DNA from: a virus
Lineage: Duplodnaviria; Heunggongvirae; Uroviricota; Caudoviricetes
Virus record (IMG/VR): IMGVR_UViG_2541047706_000009
Length of the DNA: 38,923 nucleotides
Strand: one strand, 5' to 3'
In this document: positions 3,178 through 26,364 of the stretch, in pieces
Numbering within the stretch: position 1 is the first letter of the stretch
Layout: every line of letters starts with the position of its first letter
Notes under the pieces: generated by a model
What the model was told of the DNA's origin: nothing
What the model saw: only the letters and a program-made list of their open reading frames with translations
The model's database searches: none
Translations under genes and position numbers: made by a program

Positions 3178-5340
3178 TTAAGCGCTGAAACCGCCGACTC
3201 TAACTTTTAGCGTAGAGAGATCAACATTAACAGTTATGTTTAATACACCACTCCCCGCTGAAATAGAGAATAAGCGCCGTCCGCCTGACGTTCCGCCCCC
3301 CGCCGGTGGAGTGGTATCGAGTTCACCTGTGATCGATATTGAAATGGTACCCTCACGGTTAGCAACGAGTAGCTCTAAACATTCAGCCCAGGTGTTTTGT
3401 GCAGAAGACCAAGCATCGATAAGGATTCTCTGCGTCGTTCTGTTTGGTATTGCGATGGATTTGACTTCACCTGTATTTACCAGACCTTGAAAACGAGTTC
3501 CGTAATCTATCCAGCTAATGCTATAACCTGCATTTGCTGCAGGGTCTTGAGAGGTATACCAGGTCTTGGTTCTCACGCCAGTATGACCGATTGTCAGTAG
3601 AGGACGAGCAAATTGATCTCGATGAATGTATGCATTATCTCTGATCCCGTTGCTCTGCAGATCAATATCTGCAGCACGTGGATTAGGGAAAGTCGCTTTT
3701 CCACCAACATCAAAAACATCATAATGATTTGCAACTGCAGGAATCCATCCGTTCCTGTCCAGATTTCTAAAGAAATCCTCGAAAGCCAGCCAGTATGATT
3801 GCTGATGACCTAAAAGGTTAGGGTGAACAGTCTGTATTTCAGGGGTCCGGTCAAATAATGCCGTTTCACCATATTTAGCAACAGCATCAAACCAGTATTT
3901 TTCCACATCGATAAGCACGCAACCCATTTCTACAGCGATTTTCCTGATCGCATCGTTTCCTCGAAGGAAGCGGACACCTGCTTGAATATTTACCCCATTC
4001 CACTCAAACGTGACATTTGAGTTTGCGGCAGATGGTATAATGTTATTATCAGAGACTGGGGCCGGAGAAGATGAAGGCCATATTTGAGAAATTCCAGCCG
4101 GCATGCTCCAGCTATATTCAGAAATATTCGGATGAGGTGTGGTTGTTAGCACAACATCCCCGCCGGCCTCCCTGACTAAATTAATAGCATTTCGAAGGCG
4201 CTGTTTAAATCCGTTTTCATTGAATGTTTGCCCGGCATTATATTGTGCGGTAGGAAAATCATTCATTCCATATATAAACAAAGCAATATCAGGATATATT
4301 CCTTCAGCAACAACTTCAGGCCATTGGTTAACAATAAAATTATTTATCGTTGAACCATTAACAGATTTGTTTGTGAAGTTAATGGGATAAATACGCTGCT
4401 TATTTAGCGTATCGTTCATATACTCAAAAAATTTAGCAACTGGTGCCTGTGTTGCTGGATCAGGAAGCGTAGCACCAACCCCAACAGAAGAACCAAACCC
4501 ATAGAGTCGAAATAAGTTCTGATAGCCAGAAACCCCATGCCGATAAGCTGTTAATTTATTGACGAAATTTGGGAAAAGGGCCTGTGATGATCCAGACGCA
4601 GCACGAATAGAAGCCTCTACCGTTCTTCCTGTTTCCGTAGCAACTAAGCCAGCACCGTCTTTTGATGCTAGCTTGATTGCCAAATCTGCCGTTTCAGTTT
4701 GCCCTGCAATCGGAACAGGATCCCCCTGGTCATTGAATCCAATCAGCATATTTGCTCTGGCTCGTACAGATGCCATGATTCCTACCTGACTTTCCGGAAC
4801 TCGCAAAGTTCGCTGGAAAAGACCATCTGCATGATGAGTGCTGTCATTGTCTCCCGAGTCCACATAAGATTTTGTTGCTGCATCCTGTGCCTGTGACGGG
4901 TCACGCAGATTACGAATGCGGTTGTTGAGTGCGTCGTAATAGTTCGCGATGAACGACGGCTTACGCAGCGCCAGGCGGAGAAAGCTGAAGCACTGCTGGA
5001 TAAGCATGGTCAGCTTGTCGAACGCATCCTCATGTACCTCTGCGAAAAATTTCCCCTGGTTACGCAGATCAGTCTCCTGGGTAACAGGCAAGTCACGTGA
5101 GATAGAGATTTGCCATCCGTTGGCCAGAGGTGACATCAACACAATGCTCCCACCTGAATAGCTTCCCGCCCCGGTAACGGAGTAATCGGTATCCAGAGTA
5201 AGTACCGTAATATTTTCGTTAAGGTCAGCAACCTGTACTGTCAGATCTGACTTCTTGAAAATACGAAACTTGTACGGGAAAGATGTGGTAACGCCGTTAC
5301 CAGTGTATTCGTTGTGGTCAACTTCGGTTGAGACCGTCAT
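3178..5340 (-). CDS. Tailspike/tail fibre with conserved N-terminal particle-binding domain and SGNH-hydrolase-like block
   Basis: 720 aa. N-terminus TVSTEVDHNEYTGNGVTTSFPYKFRIFKKSDLTVQV resembles the virion-attachment domain of podovirus tail fibres/spikes. Central region has GxND (IYGMNDF) and HPN motifs of SGNH/GDSL esterases. GGAG RBS. Confidence 0.7.
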   Translation of the reverse strand: MTVSTEVDHNEYTGNGVTTSFPYKFRIFKKSDLTVQVADLNENITVLTLDTDYSVTGAGSYSGGSIVLMSPLANGWQISISRDLPVTQETDLRNQGKFFAEVHEDAFDKLTMLIQQCFSFLRLALRKPSFIANYYDALNNRIRNLRDPSQAQDAATKSYVDSGDNDSTHHADGLFQRTLRVPESQVGIMASVRARANMLIGFNDQGDPVPIAGQTETADLAIKLASKDGAGLVATETGRTVEASIRAASGSSQALFPNFVNKLTAYRHGVSGYQNLFRLYGFGSSVGVGATLPDPATQAPVAKFFEYMNDTLNKQRIYPINFTNKSVNGSTINNFIVNQWPEVVAEGIYPDIALFIYGMNDFPTAQYNAGQTFNENGFKQRLRNAINLVREAGGDVVLTTTPHPNISEYSWSMPAGISQIWPSSSPAPVSDNNIIPSAANSNVTFEWNGVNIQAGVRFLRGNDAIRKIAVEMGCVLIDVEKYWFDAVAKYGETALFDRTPEIQTVHPNLLGHQQSYWLAFEDFFRNLDRNGWIPAVANHYDVFDVGGKATFPNPRAADIDLQSNGIRDNAYIHRDQFARPLLTIGHTGVRTKTWYTSQDPAANAGYSISWIDYGTRFQGLVNTGEVKSIAIPNRTTQRILIDAWSSAQNTWAECLELLVANREGTISISITGELDTTPPAGGGTSGGRRLFSISAGSGVLNITVNVDLSTLKVRVGGFSA

Positions 5341-5516: not shown

Positions 5517-5535
5517 ATTGCATGGAGAAGATAAG

Positions 5536-5793
5536 ATGCAGCGGTATCACTATCCACTGGAAGACGGATTTACCGAAAGGATTCACACGCCGGGAGGCGT
5601 CAGGTCACTGGTGGAGGGATCGCACTTGATGAAATTACTCCGGGATCTCGATAAGGATGGATTTAATGTCGATGGCCCACTTGCCGAACTGACTGCACTG
5701 ATTAACTACGTCACCAGCTCACAGATGTCTATGCAGGATCTGCAAACACATCTCGACTATTGTGCCGAACAATTACGAAAACAAACCACATAA
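5536..5793 (+). CDS. Small SOS-regulated protein, candidate antirepressor
   Basis: 85 aa (MQRYHYPLEDGF..). GGAGA RBS 7 nt upstream; promoter region carries a LexA box and an operator-like palindrome. Function inferred from regulatory context only. Confidence 0.45.
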   Translation: MQRYHYPLEDGFTERIHTPGGVRSLVEGSHLMKLLRDLDKDGFNVDGPLAELTALINYVTSSQMSMQDLQTHLDYCAEQLRKQTT

Positions 5794-5798
5794 AGAAA

Positions 5799-5816
5799 AG
5801 GCCGCGAAAGCGGCCT
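5799..5816 (-). terminator. Hairpin terminator at the end of the late operon
   Basis: aggccgc-GAAA-gcggcct stem-loop, followed on the minus strand by a T-rich tract (cttttcttta). Confidence 0.5.
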
Positions 5817-5828
5817 GTGACATGTCAC
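5817..5828. repeat. Perfect 12-bp palindrome GTGACATGTCAC (copy 1)
   Basis: Identical 12-mer recurs at 26015-26026; this copy overlaps the stop of the 5825-6121 gene and abuts the terminator hairpin. Confidence 0.6.
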
Positions 5829-6121
5829 GTTCCTTTTCTGAATGATAGCCATTCGAAAAATGATGACATTCCACCGCAGACAATAGCAAAGATTATCCCA
5901 CCAAAGAAGAGAAGGCCAGCCTGCCACCACTCCCACCGCCATACATCCACAGCGCCAACCATACCAACAATCGCTCCAACAAATGGAATATAGCTCACGA
6001 TGAAAGCAATGGGGGCTGCAATTATCCAGTGCAATCCCCACCATGATTCAAGCCCAGCCATAATTGCTGCCAACTGAAAAAGACCAACGACGATATAAAC
6101 AATGAATCCTATAGCTTGCAT
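5825..6121 (-). CDS. Small integral membrane protein (3 TM)
   Basis: 98 aa, hydrophobic throughout with Trp-rich loops; AGGTGA RBS; last gene of the late transcription unit. Confidence 0.55.
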   Translation of the reverse strand: MQAIGFIVYIVVGLFQLAAIMAGLESWWGLHWIIAAPIAFIVSYIPFVGAIVGMVGAVDVWRWEWWQAGLLFFGGIIFAIVCGGMSSFFEWLSFRKGT

Positions 6122-22884: not shown

Positions 22885-22960
22885 CAGCAGGACGCCATTG
22901 CGATGACTTCATGCTGTAAACCCGTACAGCCACGGAAGGCAGAACTCATTGCTTCCAGTT

Positions 22961-22987
22961 CGCCCGGTTCGCCGGGCATTTTTTTGC
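22961..22987 (+). terminator. Rho-independent terminator
   Basis: cgcccgg-ttcg-ccgggc GC-rich hairpin followed by TTTTTTT. Confidence 0.65.
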
Positions 22988-23000
22988 TTGATGACCGCAA

Positions 23001-23017
23001 ATTACCTTAAAGGTATA
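23001..23017. promoter_or_regulatory. Operator-like palindrome ATTACC-ttaaa-GGTATA overlapping a TATAAT element
   Basis: Half-site ATTACC plus imperfect right half; ggTATAATc lies 4 nt before the moron ATG at 23021. Confidence 0.4.
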
Positions 23018-23020
23018 ATC

Positions 23021-23839
23021 ATGAAAAACTTCAAGGTAATTAGCATGTTTGAATCGTTCAAAGAGCTGTTTTTATCTACTGCCAATACTGCCGTGAATCG
23101 AGCCAAAAACCCTGTGCTTGGTGCTTTTGTTATGTCCTGGTGCGCCTTCAACTGGAAATCAATTCTTTATCTATTTTTTAGCAAATCAAACATAATAGAT
23201 AAAATTTCATATATCTCAGATAACAGCACATGGAAAACTGTTATGTTTTATCCATGCTTATCTGTAATTGCTATCTGCTGCCTATTACCATGGGTAAACA
23301 ATATCATTAACGTATGGCAAGCAAAGCCTCTTGATAATAATGACTCAATCGAAAATCACCTGAAGGCAAGAAAAATCCAGCGTGAAACAAGGCTGCAGAG
23401 GTTATTGGCTAAAAAAGATGTTACATACGACAAAGTTAAGACTGGCGCGGAAAAAGACATCCAAGAGATGAAAGAAGAGATTATTCGTTCAAAGAATAGT
23501 ATGGGGGAATTGACTGCCGAGTTGAAAGCTAAAGATGACGAATTGAGATCCGCCAGTGCTCAGTTAGCAGCTCTAAATCATTCATTAAAAGAGATATCGG
23601 AAACTCTTGGAAGAATGAATGAGGCATATAAGACCCTCCAAAATGATTTCGACGAATACAAACTCAAATACCCTGAAAAATCTCAAATAAAAAGCCTTGC
23701 ACTTGGCAACGGCCAAACAATTAGCAACTTTTTGGAGCAACACAACTTATCCGGATTAAAATCTGGTAAGCCAAACGTTTTTAATAACTTTGGTGTTCTA
23801 TCTGGATTATCAGGTTTCGAGGATAAAAATAAAGACTAA
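23021..23839 (+). CDS. AT-rich moron: membrane-anchored coiled-coil protein
   Basis: 273 aa from ATG 23021 (ORF-track start 22949 trimmed; 22991 also possible). Two N-terminal TM segments then a K/E-rich coiled coil. Visibly lower GC than flanking genes and opposite in strand to the late operon. Confidence 0.6.
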   Translation: MKNFKVISMFESFKELFLSTANTAVNRAKNPVLGAFVMSWCAFNWKSILYLFFSKSNIIDKISYISDNSTWKTVMFYPCLSVIAICCLLPWVNNIINVWQAKPLDNNDSIENHLKARKIQRETRLQRLLAKKDVTYDKVKTGAEKDIQEMKEEIIRSKNSMGELTAELKAKDDELRSASAQLAALNHSLKEISETLGRMNEAYKTLQNDFDEYKLKYPEKSQIKSLALGNGQTISNFLEQHNLSGLKSGKPNVFNNFGVLSGLSGFEDKNKD

Positions 23840-25311
23840 GCATATGGATCGTACTCGGTAAGCGCCTTGCCTTGCTGGTTCTGCTGCCCGGGAAGTCGCA
23901 GGCGCTTTGACACCGGGAAAGCAAACGTCAGCAGTAGCGCATCGCCTTTACCAGGCGAACGCCCAAGTCGTTCTTTGATATCTTCCTTCGGTTCGATAAC
24001 GATTTTACCGTCCACGCGAACTTTGTACTCTGCCGCCGACAGATCGTCCGCTGTTTCCTGGTCATCCAGCATCCCGCCCAACCTCAGCCATGTCTTGCAT
24101 GAGTTGAACATCTCCCCACGCTTGTTAAGCATCTGCGGGTCAGTGGACGCACCGCCGAACGGAACAAGTTGCCATGTACGTCCCCAGCCATCACCGATTG
24201 ACTTCAGACCAGTTCCGTAACCGAAGTCGATGAACACTGCGTCAGCCTGGTACTGGTCTTCAAAGTCAGCGATACGCTTCGCCATAATCAGATCGTCGGT
24301 GGTCTTGTTACCAGTCCATAGCACCTTACTGTGCAGCCCCTGCCGCAGGTATATCACAGCGTCATCAACGCCGGAGTATGCCGGGTCAACGCCGATTATC
24401 ACCGGAGCATGTGCAACCTGCGCAGCGGTTACCACCCGTTTCATTGCCTCGTCAGTAAGGCCGGTAGGGATAAACTGCAATTCAGATGCATCCGGGAATA
24501 TGCCGCGCACACGGATTTTAACGAAGTCGCTGTCTTCCCCGTAGTCATCAACCCATTTCTGCAACTGCTGTTTGTTAGTGCCTTCCACCGTCCGGCTGTC
24601 AATCTGCGCAGTTTTCCAGCGGTGTTTATATTTGCGGAAACATTCGCGGAAACGCCCGGTGTTACGTGTAGGGTTTCCGAATGCCACCCAGATAATCTCA
24701 GTGTCTTCGTCCGTCAGCGCACCCTCTGCTACCTCCCACACCAGATCGGCAATGTTGGATGCTTCGTCGAATACCACGATGATGCGTTTGCGCTCGTTGT
24801 GTAGTCCGGCGAATGCCTCAGTGTTGTGCTCAGACCAGGGGATTGCGTCAGCTCGCCACCGCTTGTCGTGCCCAGGGTCATTGCTGTACATCGCGGTAGC
24901 GGTACAGGTAAACCAGTCTTTCGTGATAGCAAGGTTCGACCACTTGATAATTTCCGGCCAGGTCTTCGTTCGTAGCTGGTTGTCGGTGTTGGCGGTCACC
25001 ACGACCTTACAATCCTCGCAAGTGGACATGCCCCAGTTGATCAGCATTGAGATGAATGCGGATTTACCAATACCGTGACCAGAAGCACGTGCCAGCATAA
25101 GCGGCTGATATCGCGTCTCTGGATTCTGCAGGTGATCACGTATCTCTCGGAACGCATCGGCCTGCCACTGACGTGGACCGGTGGCATGTGCCAGTTCAGT
25201 ACCCTCTTCCCCCCACGGGAACGCATAGAGGGCATAGCCAAGCGGATCGTGAGTGAACCCTGCAATATCCTCGATTAACTGCTCTTCAGGAGATAACGCT
25301 GTATCTGTCAC
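23836..25311 (-). CDS. Terminase large subunit
   Basis: 491 aa; Walker-A-like ASGHGIGKS near the N-terminus and acidic nuclease-like C-terminal half; start overlaps the small-subunit stop. Confidence 0.8.
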   Translation of the reverse strand: MTDTALSPEEQLIEDIAGFTHDPLGYALYAFPWGEEGTELAHATGPRQWQADAFREIRDHLQNPETRYQPLMLARASGHGIGKSAFISMLINWGMSTCEDCKVVVTANTDNQLRTKTWPEIIKWSNLAITKDWFTCTATAMYSNDPGHDKRWRADAIPWSEHNTEAFAGLHNERKRIIVVFDEASNIADLVWEVAEGALTDEDTEIIWVAFGNPTRNTGRFRECFRKYKHRWKTAQIDSRTVEGTNKQQLQKWVDDYGEDSDFVKIRVRGIFPDASELQFIPTGLTDEAMKRVVTAAQVAHAPVIIGVDPAYSGVDDAVIYLRQGLHSKVLWTGNKTTDDLIMAKRIADFEDQYQADAVFIDFGYGTGLKSIGDGWGRTWQLVPFGGASTDPQMLNKRGEMFNSCKTWLRLGGMLDDQETADDLSAAEYKVRVDGKIVIEPKEDIKERLGRSPGKGDALLLTFAFPVSKRLRLPGQQNQQGKALTEYDPYA

Positions 25312-25904
25312 TGATTGCCATCCTGACGTTCTTTCAGTCTCTTCCTGGCTGCCGCTATGCGATCAGCAATTGTCACATTCACATTAACATCCAGGCGTTC
25401 TTTGAATGCGTTGACGTCGACGTGCTTACCAATCAGTTCGAGGTTCTTCACCTTGTCAGGCCATTTAATTTTTTTGAGGATTGTCTCTATCGAATCCTCG
25501 TTCATGTTCATGATGGTCGATGACAGATCAAAGCCACTAAGCGTAGTGCGCCAGATTTTCGGCCACTCACGGATTGGTTTAAGGCTCCCATCGTCGTTGA
25601 GGATATCGATCACGTCCATCTGGTCGATCTCCACCAGGCGCATGAGAACGTAATCAGCACTGACGCGCATTCGTTTGTTGCGCTCCTCCATCAACTCGGC
25701 AATCCGTTTTTGAATGCGTTCATCGCGCATCATGACACTGGCTTTAACTGCCGCTGTATTTGGGGAGAATCCTGCGTTAATCGCTGCCTGAGTCTGGTTT
25801 TCAGGCGTTTTGATGTATGACTGGCAATAAGCCTCCTGCATTGCTGTTAGTGGCTTAAATTGCGTTGATTTGCGTTTATAGGTTTTAGGTTCAGCAGGCA
25901 TCAT
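25308..25904 (-). CDS. Terminase small subunit
   Basis: About 198 aa from ATGATG at 25904 with GGTGG RBS (ORF-track start 25982 trimmed because a terminator lies inside the extension). Confidence 0.6.
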   Translation of the reverse strand: MMPAEPKTYKRKSTQFKPLTAMQEAYCQSYIKTPENQTQAAINAGFSPNTAAVKASVMMRDERIQKRIAELMEERNKRMRVSADYVLMRLVEIDQMDVIDILNDDGSLKPIREWPKIWRTTLSGFDLSSTIMNMNEDSIETILKKIKWPDKVKNLELIGKHVDVNAFKERLDVNVNVTIADRIAAARKRLKERQDGNQ

Positions 25905-25911
25905 AACCACC

Positions 25912-25943
25912 GTGGTAATAGTTACCGTTGTGGTAATAGTACC
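25912..25943. repeat. Tandem repeat GTGGTAATAGT(T)ACC x2 in the terminase leader
   Basis: Two adjacent copies separated by gtt; each holds GGTAAT and TACC half-site-like elements. Confidence 0.4.
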
Positions 25944-25946
25944 ATG

Positions 25947-25974
25947 CAAAATAAAGCCGCCATAGTTGGCGGCA
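25947..25974 (-). terminator. Rho-independent terminator upstream of the late operon
   Basis: gccgcc-aactat-ggcggc hairpin followed on the minus strand by tttatttt; about 45 nt upstream of the terminase small-subunit start. Confidence 0.6.
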
Positions 25975-26014
25975 GTATTCAAAACACATCAAATTCATCA
26001 TGCATAATCTACTC

Positions 26015-26026
26015 GTGACATGTCAC
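26015..26026. repeat. Perfect 12-bp palindrome GTGACATGTCAC (copy 2)
   Basis: Identical to the copy at 5817-5828; lies at the stop of the zinc-finger gene, about 40 nt upstream of the late-operon terminator. Confidence 0.6.
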
Positions 26027-26364
26027 ACTATTAATTTCGTTTCATGCCAGCCTTTAGTCACCCAGCATTGCGAGTCACCATTGCACGGGCATGAATTAAC
26101 TGGAACTCTCTCGCCGCACTTACCGCAACGTTTTCTGCTGATCGATTTTATACGCCCGCGCACCCGGGCATCATCCTGGCGGATCAGCAGCGCGATGTAC
26201 TCGGCCATTTCATAGGGATCTCGACCAGGGCGCCGGGCGGCGCAGTTACGCTCCAGCATTTCAATTTCCTGAGCATCAAGCACAATCTCCAGCTTACGCA
26301 CACCAGATGCAGCTTGTCTGGCTCTCTGAGCGGCTTTGCGCTCTGCTGCTGATTTAGCCATCAA
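26023..26364 (-). CDS. Small zinc-finger protein, candidate late-gene regulator
   Basis: 113 aa, basic N-terminus, C-terminal CxxC..CxC cluster (RKRCGKCGERVPVNSCPCNGDSQC); last gene before the late operon. Confidence 0.4.
   Translation of the reverse strand: MMAKSAAERKAAQRARQAASGVRKLEIVLDAQEIEMLERNCAARRPGRDPYEMAEYIALLIRQDDARVRGRIKSISRKRCGKCGERVPVNSCPCNGDSQCWVTKGWHETKLIV

What the first reader, a model, noticed from the sequence alone, without database searches (positions are those of the whole stretch)
26015..26026. Identical 12-bp palindrome GTGACATGTCAC at both ends of the late operon, each next to a terminator
The 12-mer occurs at 26015-26026, just upstream of the terminator that precedes the terminase genes, and at 5817-5828, abutting the terminator after the last late gene. 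Two identical perfect 12-bp palindromes in about 39 kb are unlikely by chance, and both have the same arrangement relative to a hairpin terminator on the minus strand. It could be a regulator or antiterminator binding site, a processing signal, or part of the terminator structures.
Basis: seen in the sequence. Interest (0 to 1): 0.5.

Follow-up and report, generated by a model that had tools for sequence, protein, structure and literature searches.

The report
Conserved phage palindrome: regulator's docking site
The repeated 12-base palindrome is real and conserved at the same spots in many temperate phages, and it is most likely the DNA docking site of the small, uncharacterised ribbon-helix-helix/zinc protein whose gene ends inside one of the two copies.

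Summary
Observation confirmed. GTGACATGTCAC occurs exactly twice in the window (5817, 26015). Each copy overlaps the TGA stop of a minus-strand gene and lies upstream of a minus-strand terminator.

The window is an epsilon15/phiV10-like (Uetakevirus) prophage. The same 12-mer sits at homologous places in every relative checked from E. coli, Salmonella, Enterobacter, Klebsiella and Citrobacter.

The core is Y-GTGAC-N2-GTCAC-R, and the 2-bp spacing is strict: 22 copies in 8 genomes against 0.3 expected, and none at any other spacing. It is therefore not matS.

One copy travels with the 3' end of the 112-aa gene at 26023-26364, including in unrelated phages (ZF40, Chlobot, P2-like Yersinia, Vibrio). 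That protein has no Pfam or NCBIfam family. Its model is a ribbon-helix-helix domain plus a C-terminal Cys4 element.

Subfamilies with Glu at the DNA-facing strand position pair with centre AT or AG. Subfamilies with Arg pair with GC or AC.

Best reading: the palindrome is the cognate operator of this protein, marking transcription-unit boundaries. Whether it blocks or promotes read-through is unresolved. I lean to roadblock/insulator.

Main caveat: 28 of 80 YdaT-type lambdoid loci keep the sites but show no copy of the gene in the 14 kb held.

The parts
26015..26026 (.). Site A: palindrome GTGACATGTCAC (14-bp form cGTGACATGTCACa, 26014-26027), overlapping the TGA stop of the RHH/Zn gene.
   Evidence: The same position and register is seen in eps15, SPN1S, Tyrion, TL-2011b, PAT1, Kp4865-1, Omnitron and dozens of IMG/VR loci.
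5817..5828 (.). Site C: second identical palindrome (tGTGACATGTCACg). It overlaps the TGA stop of the 98-aa minus-strand ORF and abuts the terminator at a convergent gene junction.
   Evidence: Homologous copies are in eps15 (19517), phiV10 (19493), Tyrion (20377), SPN1S (19662), PAT1 (3438) and TL-2011b (32282). Several IMG/VR loci share only the terminator+palindrome cassette (window 5791-5835) with the window.
26023..26364 (-). Gene for the 112-aa protein (ATG at 26361; eps15 gp49 / phiV10 p55 family; phrog_536). It has an N-terminal basic helix, a ribbon-helix-helix domain and a C-terminal Cys4 zinc-ribbon-like element. It is the proposed binder of the palindrome.
25956..25973 (-). Intrinsic terminator (GCCGCCAACTATGGCGGC + TTTATTTT) between the RHH/Zn gene and terS, 41 nt downstream of site A.
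   Evidence: The homologous terminator is annotated in eps15.
5799..5816 (-). Intrinsic terminator (AGGCCGCTTTCGCGGCCT + TTTCTTTA) immediately downstream of site C.
25904..25944 (-). Context, not part of the palindrome system: two prophage-repressor-type operators (TTACC-N5-GGTAA at 25904-25918 and 25922-25936). An extended -10-like TGGTACTAT (25936-25944) overlaps them just upstream of terS. This suggests terS has its own repressor-controlled promoter.
   Evidence: The same TGnTAyTAT + operator arrangement is seen in Kp4865-1 and eps15. The promoter assignment is an inference.
4893..4904 (.). Possible third, weak site: tGTGACGGGTCACg inside the tailspike ORF. It has the same half-sites and spacing but a non-palindromic GG centre.
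   Evidence: Not followed up; it may be chance.

Best explanation
The palindrome is a sequence-specific protein-binding site on double-stranded DNA, with core Y-GTGAC-NN-GTCAC-R. Its cognate protein is the 112-aa protein encoded at 26023-26364, whose own stop codon lies inside site A.

Proposed recognition (inferred): a dimer inserts its two-stranded beta-ribbon into the central ACATGT. The basic N-terminal helices and/or the zinc elements read the invariant outer GTG/CAC.

In this phage group the sites sit at the 3' ends of transcription units, immediately upstream of intrinsic terminators. Site A ends the early-right operon, before terS. Site C ends the virion-gene block, at a convergent junction. 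Relatives have a third site (B) beside the terminator after terL.

Proposed function (inferred): the bound protein marks and tightens these boundaries. It would act as a roadblock or insulator that limits read-through between neighbouring and convergent units, including feedback on transcription leaving its own gene.

Shown here: conservation, strict spacing, linkage of site to gene, the fold, and covariation of the centre bases with the protein.

Inferred only: actual binding, the stoichiometry, and the direction of the effect on transcription.
For: (1) Conservation.
- Exact copies lie at homologous positions in eps15, phiV10, TL-2011b, Tyrion, SPN1S, PAT1, Kp4865-1 and Omnitron, although the flanks are only about 77% identical or unrelated.
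- In 1.39 Mb of 80 related loci the 12-mer occurs only at sites A and B.

(2) Strict architecture.
- GTGAC-N2-GTCAC occurs 22 times in 8 genomes (0.3 expected) and 211 times in 1.8 Mb.
- There are none at N0, N1, N3, N4 or N6 (4 at N5), and almost none in the inverted order (2 in 1.8 Mb).
- Position -1 is Y in all 29 non-redundant contexts and +1 is R in 28 of them. Conservation falls to background beyond that.

(3) Linkage of site to gene.
- A copy lies within 0-10 nt of the family gene's stop in unrelated phages: ZF40, Chlobot, 50-63%-identical homologues L205 and L267, Vibrio PE002B, Yersinia vB_YenM_201.16 and Klebsiella Kpn74.
- In a sample of IMG/VR stretches taken as the scan met them, 41 of 135 copies are at the family gene's 3' end, and about 25 more are sites B or C of Uetakevirus-like phages.

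(5) Covariation.
- Proteins with K-x-E-x-V on the strand pair with centre AT (AG in PE002B, which has both of its copies identical).
- Proteins with E-x-R-x-K/R (the L125 group, L163, K303, Yen 201.16) pair with centre GC or AC.
- The D-type protein (Kpn74) pairs with TG.
- Glu-with-A and Arg-with-G is chemically sensible (established knowledge).

(6) Selection at the DNA level inside genes. In YdaT-family genes the codons CGT GAC ATG TCA C never vary at synonymous positions while neighbouring codons do. The next residue varies (H/R/Q) but its codon always keeps C followed by a purine.

(7) Position relative to terminators. Of 229 unique contexts, 80 have the motif only upstream of a terminator, 47 lie beside a bidirectional terminator, and 2 lie only downstream.

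(8) terS seems to have its own repressor-controlled promoter downstream of the terminator. Read-through of that terminator is therefore not obviously needed.
Against: - In 28 of 80 YdaT-type lambdoid loci both palindromes are intact, but the family gene is not found in the 14 kb held. Where I compared 12 of them with a gene-carrying locus, its usual slot holds other DNA (a reverse-transcriptase-like ORF in L294). So the sites can persist without the gene nearby, and loss of a site does not track loss of the gene.
- Some homologues lack any site within 3 kb (the L093/L098/L104/L122/L126 clade, and Yersinia 42.18).
- The covariation may rest on a single ancient split between the E-type and R-type subfamilies, so it could be one evolutionary event.
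- A roadblock placed upstream of a good terminator is functionally redundant.
- In ZF40 and the lambdoids the sites lie inside early operons with no terminator nearby. The 'boundary' role may therefore be specific to this phage group.
- The host genome was not searched for the motif.
Confidence: 0.5

Rival explanations
1. Same protein and same site, but the opposite effect. The protein is a late-switch antiterminator, analogous in logic to lambda Q but unrelated to it. Bound just upstream of a terminator, it would modify or assist passing RNA polymerase so that it reads through the terminator before terS, and through the one before the tailspike and lysis genes.
For: - The gene is the last one of the early-right operon, directly before a strong terminator and the packaging genes.
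- The motif lies upstream of terminators far more often than downstream: 80 contexts against 2.
- Tailspike and lysis genes lie beyond the site C terminator on the same strand.
- No canonical -35/-10 promoter was found between the terminator and terS.
- No Q-like gene is annotated in eps15 or phiV10.
Against: - Repressor-type operators and an extended -10-like element sit between the terminator and terS, and operators precede each late unit. Late units therefore look self-promoted.
- At site B in relatives, the site is upstream of the terminator only for the opposite-strand accessory gene.
- In Chlobot, Kpn74, L205 and L267 the site is followed by the next gene's ribosome-binding site, with no terminator.
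- ZF40 and the lambdoids with this gene also carry a Q antiterminator, and the P2-like phages have their own late system.
- No promoter-proximal pause context exists: there is no enrichment of -10-like hexamers next to the motif.
Confidence: 0.17
2. The palindrome is bound by something other than the adjacent gene's product: a host protein of Enterobacterales, Vibrio and Aeromonas, or another phage protein. The linkage to the RHH/Zn gene would then reflect shared module boundaries, not recognition.
For: - Twenty-eight of 80 YdaT-type lambdoid loci keep both sites but show no copy of the gene in the 14 kb held.
- The half-sites are identical to those of matS (GTGACRNYGTCAC; PMC6907758, table 2).
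- All hosts seen belong to the groups that, from my own knowledge, carry MatP.
- Homology breakpoints between phages coincide with the sites.
Against: - Spacing is strictly N2. There is not a single N3 (matS-type) site in 2.1 Mb of these phages.
- Different centre variants occur among phages from enterobacterial hosts (GC in a Yersinia phage, TG and AT in Klebsiella phages, AT in E. coli and Salmonella phages), and each travels with one protein subtype. In PE002B and PAT1 the extra copies match or nearly match the genome's own variant.
- The site stays at the gene's stop codon across phages with unrelated downstream sequence.
Confidence: 0.15
3. The element works in RNA. A small GUGA-CAUG-UCAC hairpin in 3' untranslated regions would act as a processing, stability or antiterminator-binding signal, or as an accessory part of the terminator.
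For: - The sites are transcribed.
- They lie 0-4 nt 5' of terminator hairpins at sites B and C.
- A DNA palindrome gives the same RNA from both strands, which would suit convergent junctions.
- The protein has an arginine-rich N-terminal helix.
Against: - The hairpin is marginal (-1.2 kcal/mol) and no better than shuffles. At site A the predicted fold does not even keep it.
- The half-site sequence is invariant, with no compensatory stem changes from Vibrio to E. coli phages.
- The flanking Y/R positions vary independently, and the non-pairing C...A combination is not depleted: 7 of 29 seen, 5.3 expected.
- The predicted fold is a classic double-stranded-DNA binder.
Confidence: 0.05
4. No function. 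The repeat is chance, or a passenger of a terminator cassette spread by recombination.
For: - The within-window statistic is only p of about 0.02.
- The terminator+palindrome cassette does move as a unit between contexts.
Against: - Enrichment at exactly one spacing is more than 70-fold.
- The site is conserved across genera at about 35% protein identity.
- Synonymous positions are conserved inside ydaT.
- Three different terminator sequences accompany the same 12-mer.
Confidence: 0.02

Closest known systems
P22 Arc/Mnt and plasmid CopG: small ribbon-helix-helix repressors with short symmetric operators
   Different: - There is no detectable sequence homology to any Pfam, NCBIfam or PDB entry.
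- The protein has an extra N-terminal basic helix and a C-terminal Cys4 element.
- The operators are not at promoters. They overlap the regulator's own stop codon, sit beside terminators, or lie inside genes.
- There is one 12-14-bp site per locus, not tandem subsites.
MatP/matS of E. coli (macrodomain Ter organiser)
   Different: The spacer is 2 bp, not 3, with no exception in 233 phage copies and no N3 site at all. The binder proposed here is phage-encoded and lacks MatP's four-helix bundle and coiled coil. Its sites are tied to gene ends and terminators.
Lambda Q / QBE and N / nut antitermination systems
   Same: The regulator gene sits at the end of the delayed-early operon, just before a terminator and the late genes. 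In ZF40 and the lambdoids one site lies in each early operon, reminiscent of nutL/nutR.
   Different: There is no homology to Q or N. The site is not embedded in a promoter. It is not a stable RNA hairpin. Phages with this gene often carry a bona fide Q as well.
Protein roadblocks to transcription elongation (e.g. LacI or CodY bound within transcription units)
   Same: This is the proposed working principle: a tightly bound dimer on a symmetric site inside or at the end of a transcription unit stops polymerase arriving from either direction.
   Different: This is a resemblance by inference only; no roadblock activity was tested. Here the sites are dedicated and conserved, and in this phage group they are paired with intrinsic terminators.

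Membership tests
Ribbon-helix-helix (Arc/MetJ/CopG) DNA-binding regulators | Beta-strand followed by two helices (beta-alpha-alpha) in about 45 residues | tested here: met
Ribbon-helix-helix (Arc/MetJ/CopG) DNA-binding regulators | Obligate dimer whose paired strands enter the major groove | not testable with these tools
   Only a monomer could be modelled. The strand shows the alternating hydrophobic/polar pattern K-L-E-I-V-L-D.
Ribbon-helix-helix (Arc/MetJ/CopG) DNA-binding regulators | Symmetric or repeated operator recognised through strand residues | tested here: met
   The target is a 14-bp two-fold symmetric motif. The centre dinucleotide co-varies with strand residue 25: E with AT/AG, R with GC/AC, D with TG. 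Physical binding was not tested.
Ribbon-helix-helix (Arc/MetJ/CopG) DNA-binding regulators | Sequence membership in a curated RHH family | tested here: not met
   No Pfam, NCBIfam or PDB sequence hit. The only match is phrog_536, 'transcriptional regulator'. It is a new family within the fold.
matS (MatP-binding site) | 13-bp GTGAC-RNY-GTCAC (3-bp spacer) | tested here: not met
   The spacer is 2 bp in all 233 copies, with zero N3 copies in 2.1 Mb. The consensus is taken from PMC6907758.
matS (MatP-binding site) | Bound by host MatP | not testable with these tools
   This needs an EMSA or ChIP experiment.
Intrinsic terminator (as an integral part of it) | Contributes to the G+C-rich stem or the U-tract | tested here: not met
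   At site C it folds as a separate 4-bp hairpin of -1.2 kcal/mol. At site A it lies 41 nt from the terminator. In Chlobot, ZF40 and Kpn74 it occurs without any terminator.
Lambda Q-type antitermination site (QBE) | Binding site embedded in or next to a sigma-70 promoter with a promoter-proximal pause | tested here: not met
   GTGACA can mimic a -35 element, but -10-like hexamers at 16-18 nt are not enriched: 12 of 104 contexts, against 8-19 in controls. Promoter scans are at shuffle level.
N/nut-type RNA antitermination site | Stable boxB-like RNA hairpin recognised as RNA | tested here: not met
   The hairpin is -1.2 kcal/mol with z about 0. There are no compensatory stem changes, and the flanks follow DNA half-site logic.
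CRP-type site | TGTGA-N6-TCACA spacing | tested here: not met
   Here the arrangement is TGTGA-N4-TCACA. The sequence shows this directly, and the spacing is invariant.

The most novel reading that the evidence does not exclude
A previously undescribed, widespread phage regulatory module. It consists of a ribbon-helix-helix/zinc-ribbon protein whose operator is built into its own stop codon, with further operators placed directly in front of intrinsic terminators or inside early operons. The DNA-bound protein would gate whether RNA polymerase crosses transcription-unit boundaries: a protein-switched terminator or insulator, or a DNA-site-dependent antiterminator unrelated to Q and N. In epsilon15-like phages, which have no known late regulator, this would be the missing early-to-late control.
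Probability: 0.2. Interest if true: 0.8.

Novelty: new variant of a known kind. Interest (0 to 1): 0.58.

Why it matters
Epsilon15/phiV10-like phages are used as models for virion structure and as reporter and biocontrol phages for Salmonella and E. coli O157. As far as I could find, how they order early and late transcription has not been worked out.

This finding defines a concrete, testable cis/trans pair:
- a 14-bp site with strict geometry;
- a 112-aa protein with no curated family.

The pair is shared by podo-, myo- and siphovirus-type temperate phages of Enterobacterales, Vibrio and Aeromonas.

If the protein gates terminators or blocks read-through, it adds a new way for phages to insulate mosaic modules. 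It would also be a compact orthogonal part (site plus protein, with natural specificity variants AT, GC and TG) for synthetic biology.

It also warns annotators. The site is split by the arbitrary record start of phiV10 and Tyrion, and it is not annotated in the feature-rich epsilon15 record.

Tried and rejected
- Promoter hypothesis (GTGACA as a -35 element). Scans flagged GTGACA-18-CATGAT at site A and GTGACA-18-AATGAT at site C. Across 104 non-redundant contexts, -10-like hexamers at 16-18 nt are no more frequent than at other spacings. Rejected.
- matS/MatP. The half-sites are the same, but not one N3-spaced copy exists. Rejected as membership; kept only as a remote host-factor rival.
- CRP, LexA and repressor operator. 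The spacing or sequence is wrong. The true repressor-type operators are a different motif, TTACC-N5-GGTAA, with 13 copies.
- Part of the terminator, or an RNA hairpin. Rejected by folding and flank statistics.
- Small ORF starting at the internal ATG. It gives only 7 and 16 codons, read from the sequence. Rejected.
- Literature. No paper in the library contains the 12-mer. Searches for Uetakevirus late regulation and for RHH/zinc phage regulators found nothing relevant. The epsilon15 genome paper (PMC2698709) is not held.
- Pfam, NCBIfam and PDB sequence searches of the protein returned nothing.
- Not done: counting the motif in host chromosomes, because no tool scans 12-mers in E. coli genomes.
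- Not done: checking whether the Uetakevirus clade that lost site A (L093 type) also lost sites B and C, because only +/-3 kb of those contigs was available.

Full report
**1. The observation**

GTGACATGTCAC occurs exactly at 5817-5828 and 26015-26026. There is no other copy at one mismatch or fewer. At three mismatches or fewer the count equals chance: 16 against 17.95 expected.

The window has nine perfect 12-bp palindromes, and this is the only one repeated. Two percent of 1000 dinucleotide-preserving shuffles contain any repeated 12-bp palindrome. Within the window alone the coincidence is therefore suggestive, not compelling.

Both copies overlap the TGA stop of a minus-strand ORF in the same register (G-TGA-CATGTCAC). 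These are ORF 26023..26364 and ORF 5825..6121.

Both copies lie upstream, in the direction of transcription, of a minus-strand intrinsic terminator:
- 25973-25956, with a 41-nt gap;
- 5816-5799, with no gap.

**2. What the window is**

The window is an epsilon15/phiV10-like temperate podophage (genus Uetakevirus), with late genes on the minus strand.

- ORF 26023..26364 is the homologue of epsilon15 gp49 and phiV10 p55. It is the last gene of the early-right operon, directly before terS (25308..25982).
- The 5817 copy ends the block of head and internal virion genes, at a convergent junction with a plus-strand gene (5518..5793).
- The tailspike (3178..5340) and the lysis genes lie further on the minus strand. 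'Both ends of the late operon' is therefore only approximately right.

**3. Conservation**

The exact 12-mer is found at homologous positions in epsilon15, phiV10, TL-2011b, Tyrion, SPN1S, PAT1, Klebsiella phage Kp4865-1 and Citrobacter phage Omnitron. There are three site classes:

| Site | Position | In this window |
|---|---|---|
| A | At the stop codon of the gp49-like gene | 26015 |
| B | Beside the terminator between terL and a convergent accessory gene | Absent (a different gene, 22949..23839, abuts terL) |
| C | Between the last virion gene, or another gene, and a terminator | 5817 |

The phiV10 and Tyrion records are cut open in the middle of site A. The phiV10 copy carries one mismatch.

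In 80 closely related IMG/VR loci (1.39 Mb) the 12-mer occurs only at A and B, never in the 10 kb of early genes.

The three classes use three different terminator sequences, so the palindrome is not a piece of one duplicated terminator.

**4. Anatomy of the motif**

- GTGAC-N2-GTCAC occurs 22 times in eight genomes, against 0.3 expected.
- It occurs 211 times in 1.8 Mb of loci anchored on the gene.
- The same half-sites never occur at spacings 0, 1, 3, 4 or 6 (four copies at spacing 5), and the inverted order occurs only twice in 1.8 Mb.
- In 29 contexts whose flanks are less than 60% identical, position -1 is always a pyrimidine and +1 is a purine in 28. Beyond that, conservation drops to background.

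The unit is therefore a 14-bp two-fold symmetric element with a semi-variable centre (AT in 74%).

**5. The site travels with a gene**

A copy lies 0-10 nt from the stop codon of gp49-family genes in phages that share nothing else with the window around it:
- Pectobacterium myovirus ZF40: 2 nt after a TAA stop.
- Escherichia phage Chlobot: followed by the next gene's ribosome-binding site.
- Homologues of 50-63% identity (L205, L267).
- A Vibrio plasmid-prophage (PE002B): overlapping the TGA stop in the same register.
- A P2-like Yersinia phage (vB_YenM_201.16): same register.
- Klebsiella phage Kpn74: same register.

I also examined 120 IMG/VR stretches containing TGTGACATGTCACG, taken as the scan met them. 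Of their 135 copies, 41 lie at the 3' end of a family ORF, and about 25 more are B or C sites of Uetakevirus-like phages. The rest are mostly coding coincidences in other gene families, or GTGAC-rich iteron-like arrays.

**6. The protein**

The 112-aa product has no Pfam, NCBIfam or PDB sequence match. It belongs to phrog_536, labelled 'transcriptional regulator'. The family comprises about 160 clusters at 50% identity among 1.8 billion representatives.

The family alignment shows four parts:
- a basic N-terminal helix;
- a strand with alternating hydrophobic residues (K-L-E-I-V-L-D);
- two helices;
- a C-terminal C-x2-C...C...C element.

RHH proteins bind DNA as dimers through a two-stranded sheet (established knowledge). 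That fits a short palindrome.

**7. Covariation**

| Strand type | Members | Centre of their sites |
|---|---|---|
| K-x-E-x-V | Window, all Uetakeviruses, ZF40, L205, L267 | AT |
| K-V-V-E-V-K | Vibrio PE002B | AG, in both of its copies, which also share five further bases |
| E-x-R-x-K/R | L125/L153-155 group | GTGACGCGTCAC |
| E-x-R-x-K/R | L163 (36% identity) | GTGACGCGTCAC and GTGACACGTCAC |
| E-x-R-x-K/R | Vibrio K303 | GTGACACGTCAC |
| E-x-R-x-K/R | Yersinia 201.16 | GTGACGCGTCAC |
| R-R-D-W-V | Klebsiella Kpn74 | TG |

Glu paired with A and Arg paired with G agrees with common recognition chemistry.

E-type, R-type and D-type phages were all found in enterobacterial hosts (Yersinia, Klebsiella, E. 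coli, Salmonella). This argues for a phage-encoded determinant of specificity. The caveat is that the E/R split may be one ancient event.

**8. Other genomes**

ZF40 has three exact copies, against 0.003 expected:
- after the family gene;
- inside its YdaT-family (CII-like) gene in the rightward early operon;
- inside a gene of the leftward early operon.

A search anchored on the YdaT homologue returned 80 lambdoid loci. Nearly all carry two copies, one in ydaT and one about 5 kb away on the other side of the immunity region.

Inside ydaT the codons CGT GAC ATG TCA C are invariant at synonymous positions, while neighbouring codons vary freely. The next residue changes (H, R, Q) but its codon keeps C followed by a purine. 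Selection is therefore acting on the DNA motif.

The family gene is found in 52 of these loci and not in 28. In 12 of those 28, comparison with a gene-carrying locus showed its usual slot holding other DNA, for example a reverse-transcriptase-like ORF in L294. Loss of a site does not track loss of the gene.

This is the main observation that the gene-site model does not explain.

**9. Relation to terminators and promoters**

Among 229 unique contexts:
- 80 have the motif only upstream of a terminator;
- 47 have it beside a bidirectional terminator;
- 2 have it only downstream;
- 100 have no terminator within 70 nt.

The gaps are 0-4 nt at sites B and C, and 16-41 nt at site A.

As RNA, the 12-mer alone folds at -1.2 kcal/mol, no better than shuffles, and it is not part of the terminator stem. 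The flanking Y/R bases vary independently: the non-pairing C...A combination appears in 7 of 29 contexts, against 5.3 expected. An RNA-structure role is therefore unlikely.

GTGACA resembles a -35 hexamer, and the scanner paired it with weak -10s at both window copies. Across 104 contexts, however, such -10s are not enriched at 16-18 nt.

The window has 13 repressor-type operators (TTACC-N5-GGTAA), against 0.58 expected. They precede every transcription unit, including terS. There they overlap an extended -10-like TGGTACTAT just downstream of the terminator. The same arrangement is seen in epsilon15 and Kp4865-1.

Late units thus look self-promoted. That weakens, but does not exclude, the need for antitermination at site A.

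**10. Interpretation**

Well supported: the palindrome is a functional, conserved DNA element with strict geometry.

Most likely (about 0.75): it is the operator of the RHH/zinc protein whose gene ends in site A.

Inferred with lower confidence: in this phage group the bound protein reinforces transcription-unit boundaries as a roadblock or insulator with autoregulatory potential.

Rivals:
- The same pair acting as an antiterminator.
- A different (host) binder.
- An RNA element.
- No function.

The element is not matS, not a CRP or LexA site, not the prophage repressor operator, and not a terminator component.

**11. Novelty**

No paper in the searchable library contains the sequence. The richly annotated epsilon15 record does not mark it. 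The protein has no curated family.

It is a new variant of a known kind: an RHH regulator with a symmetric operator. Three features are unusual:
- a zinc-ribbon tail;
- an operator fused to the regulator's own stop codon;
- operators placed at terminators or inside operons rather than at promoters.

Noticed in passing
window 5445, 22386, 23002, 25904, 25922, 30020, 30082, 32052, 32389, 32437, 33149, 33211 (each 15 bp): There are thirteen TTACC-N5-GGTAA palindromes, against 0.58 expected. They match the 'repressor' sites annotated in the epsilon15 record and sit in front of every transcription unit, late ones included. The prophage repressor seems to control late units directly, through dispersed operators as in phage P1.
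   Followed up: partly
L088 (Klebsiella phage Kp4865-1) 12715-13105: Klebsiella Uetakeviruses have an insert between site A and terS. It carries TTGACT...TATACT overlapping a perfect LexA box (CTGTTTAAATATACAG), followed by a 109-aa ORF starting MGFPSPAADY (UmuD-like by eye; no Pfam hit). No terminator remains before terS.
   Followed up: partly
L288 (ZF40) 7622 and 5125; L294-L373 at about 7383 and about 1000-2460: In ZF40 and in about 70 lambdoid loci the same 12-mer lies inside the YdaT-family (CII-like) gene and again in the leftward early operon, symmetric about the immunity region. Synonymous positions are frozen. Twenty-eight of the 80 lambdoid loci show no RHH/zinc gene in the 14 kb held.
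   Followed up: yes
L294 10223-11707: In the slot where related lambdoids carry the RHH/zinc gene, this phage has a 494-aa ORF with a YRDD motif. It looks like a reverse-transcriptase-type defence gene.
   Followed up: no
window 4893-4904: tGTGACGGGTCACg lies inside the tailspike ORF. It has the same half-sites, spacing and Y/R flanks, with a GG centre. It could be a weak third site or chance.
   Followed up: no
window 22949-23839 (+) against 23836-25311 (-): A 296-aa plus-strand ORF with no Pfam match converges on terL and overlaps its stop by 4 nt. This is exactly where relatives have the site B palindrome+terminator cassette and a different accessory gene.
   Followed up: partly
L003 (phiV10 NC_007804.2) ends; L006 (Tyrion NC_031077.1) ends: Both reference records are linearised in the middle of site A, so the palindrome is invisible in them. 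The phiV10 copy is GTGACATGTTAC (one mismatch), and its 'terminator' feature is a single base at 39104.
   Followed up: yes
L170, L175, L180, L232, L273, L282: A family of Q-antiterminator-like genes begins ATG CGT GAC ATG TCA CAG (MRDMSQ). These genes therefore carry the 12-mer at their start codon. I treated this as a coding coincidence and did not test it.
   Followed up: no
L182, L201, L211, L230, L268: Dense arrays of GTGAC/GTCAC-containing repeats lie inside 300-360-aa ORFs and include the 12-mer. They look like origin iterons within replication-initiator genes of other phages.
   Followed up: no
L289 (Vibrio phage PE002B) 39336: The second copy of this phage's own variant (GTGACAGGTCACAAAGT) lies 137 nt upstream of a parA gene, next to a bidirectional terminator. 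The phage is a plasmid-like prophage with RepA.
   Followed up: no
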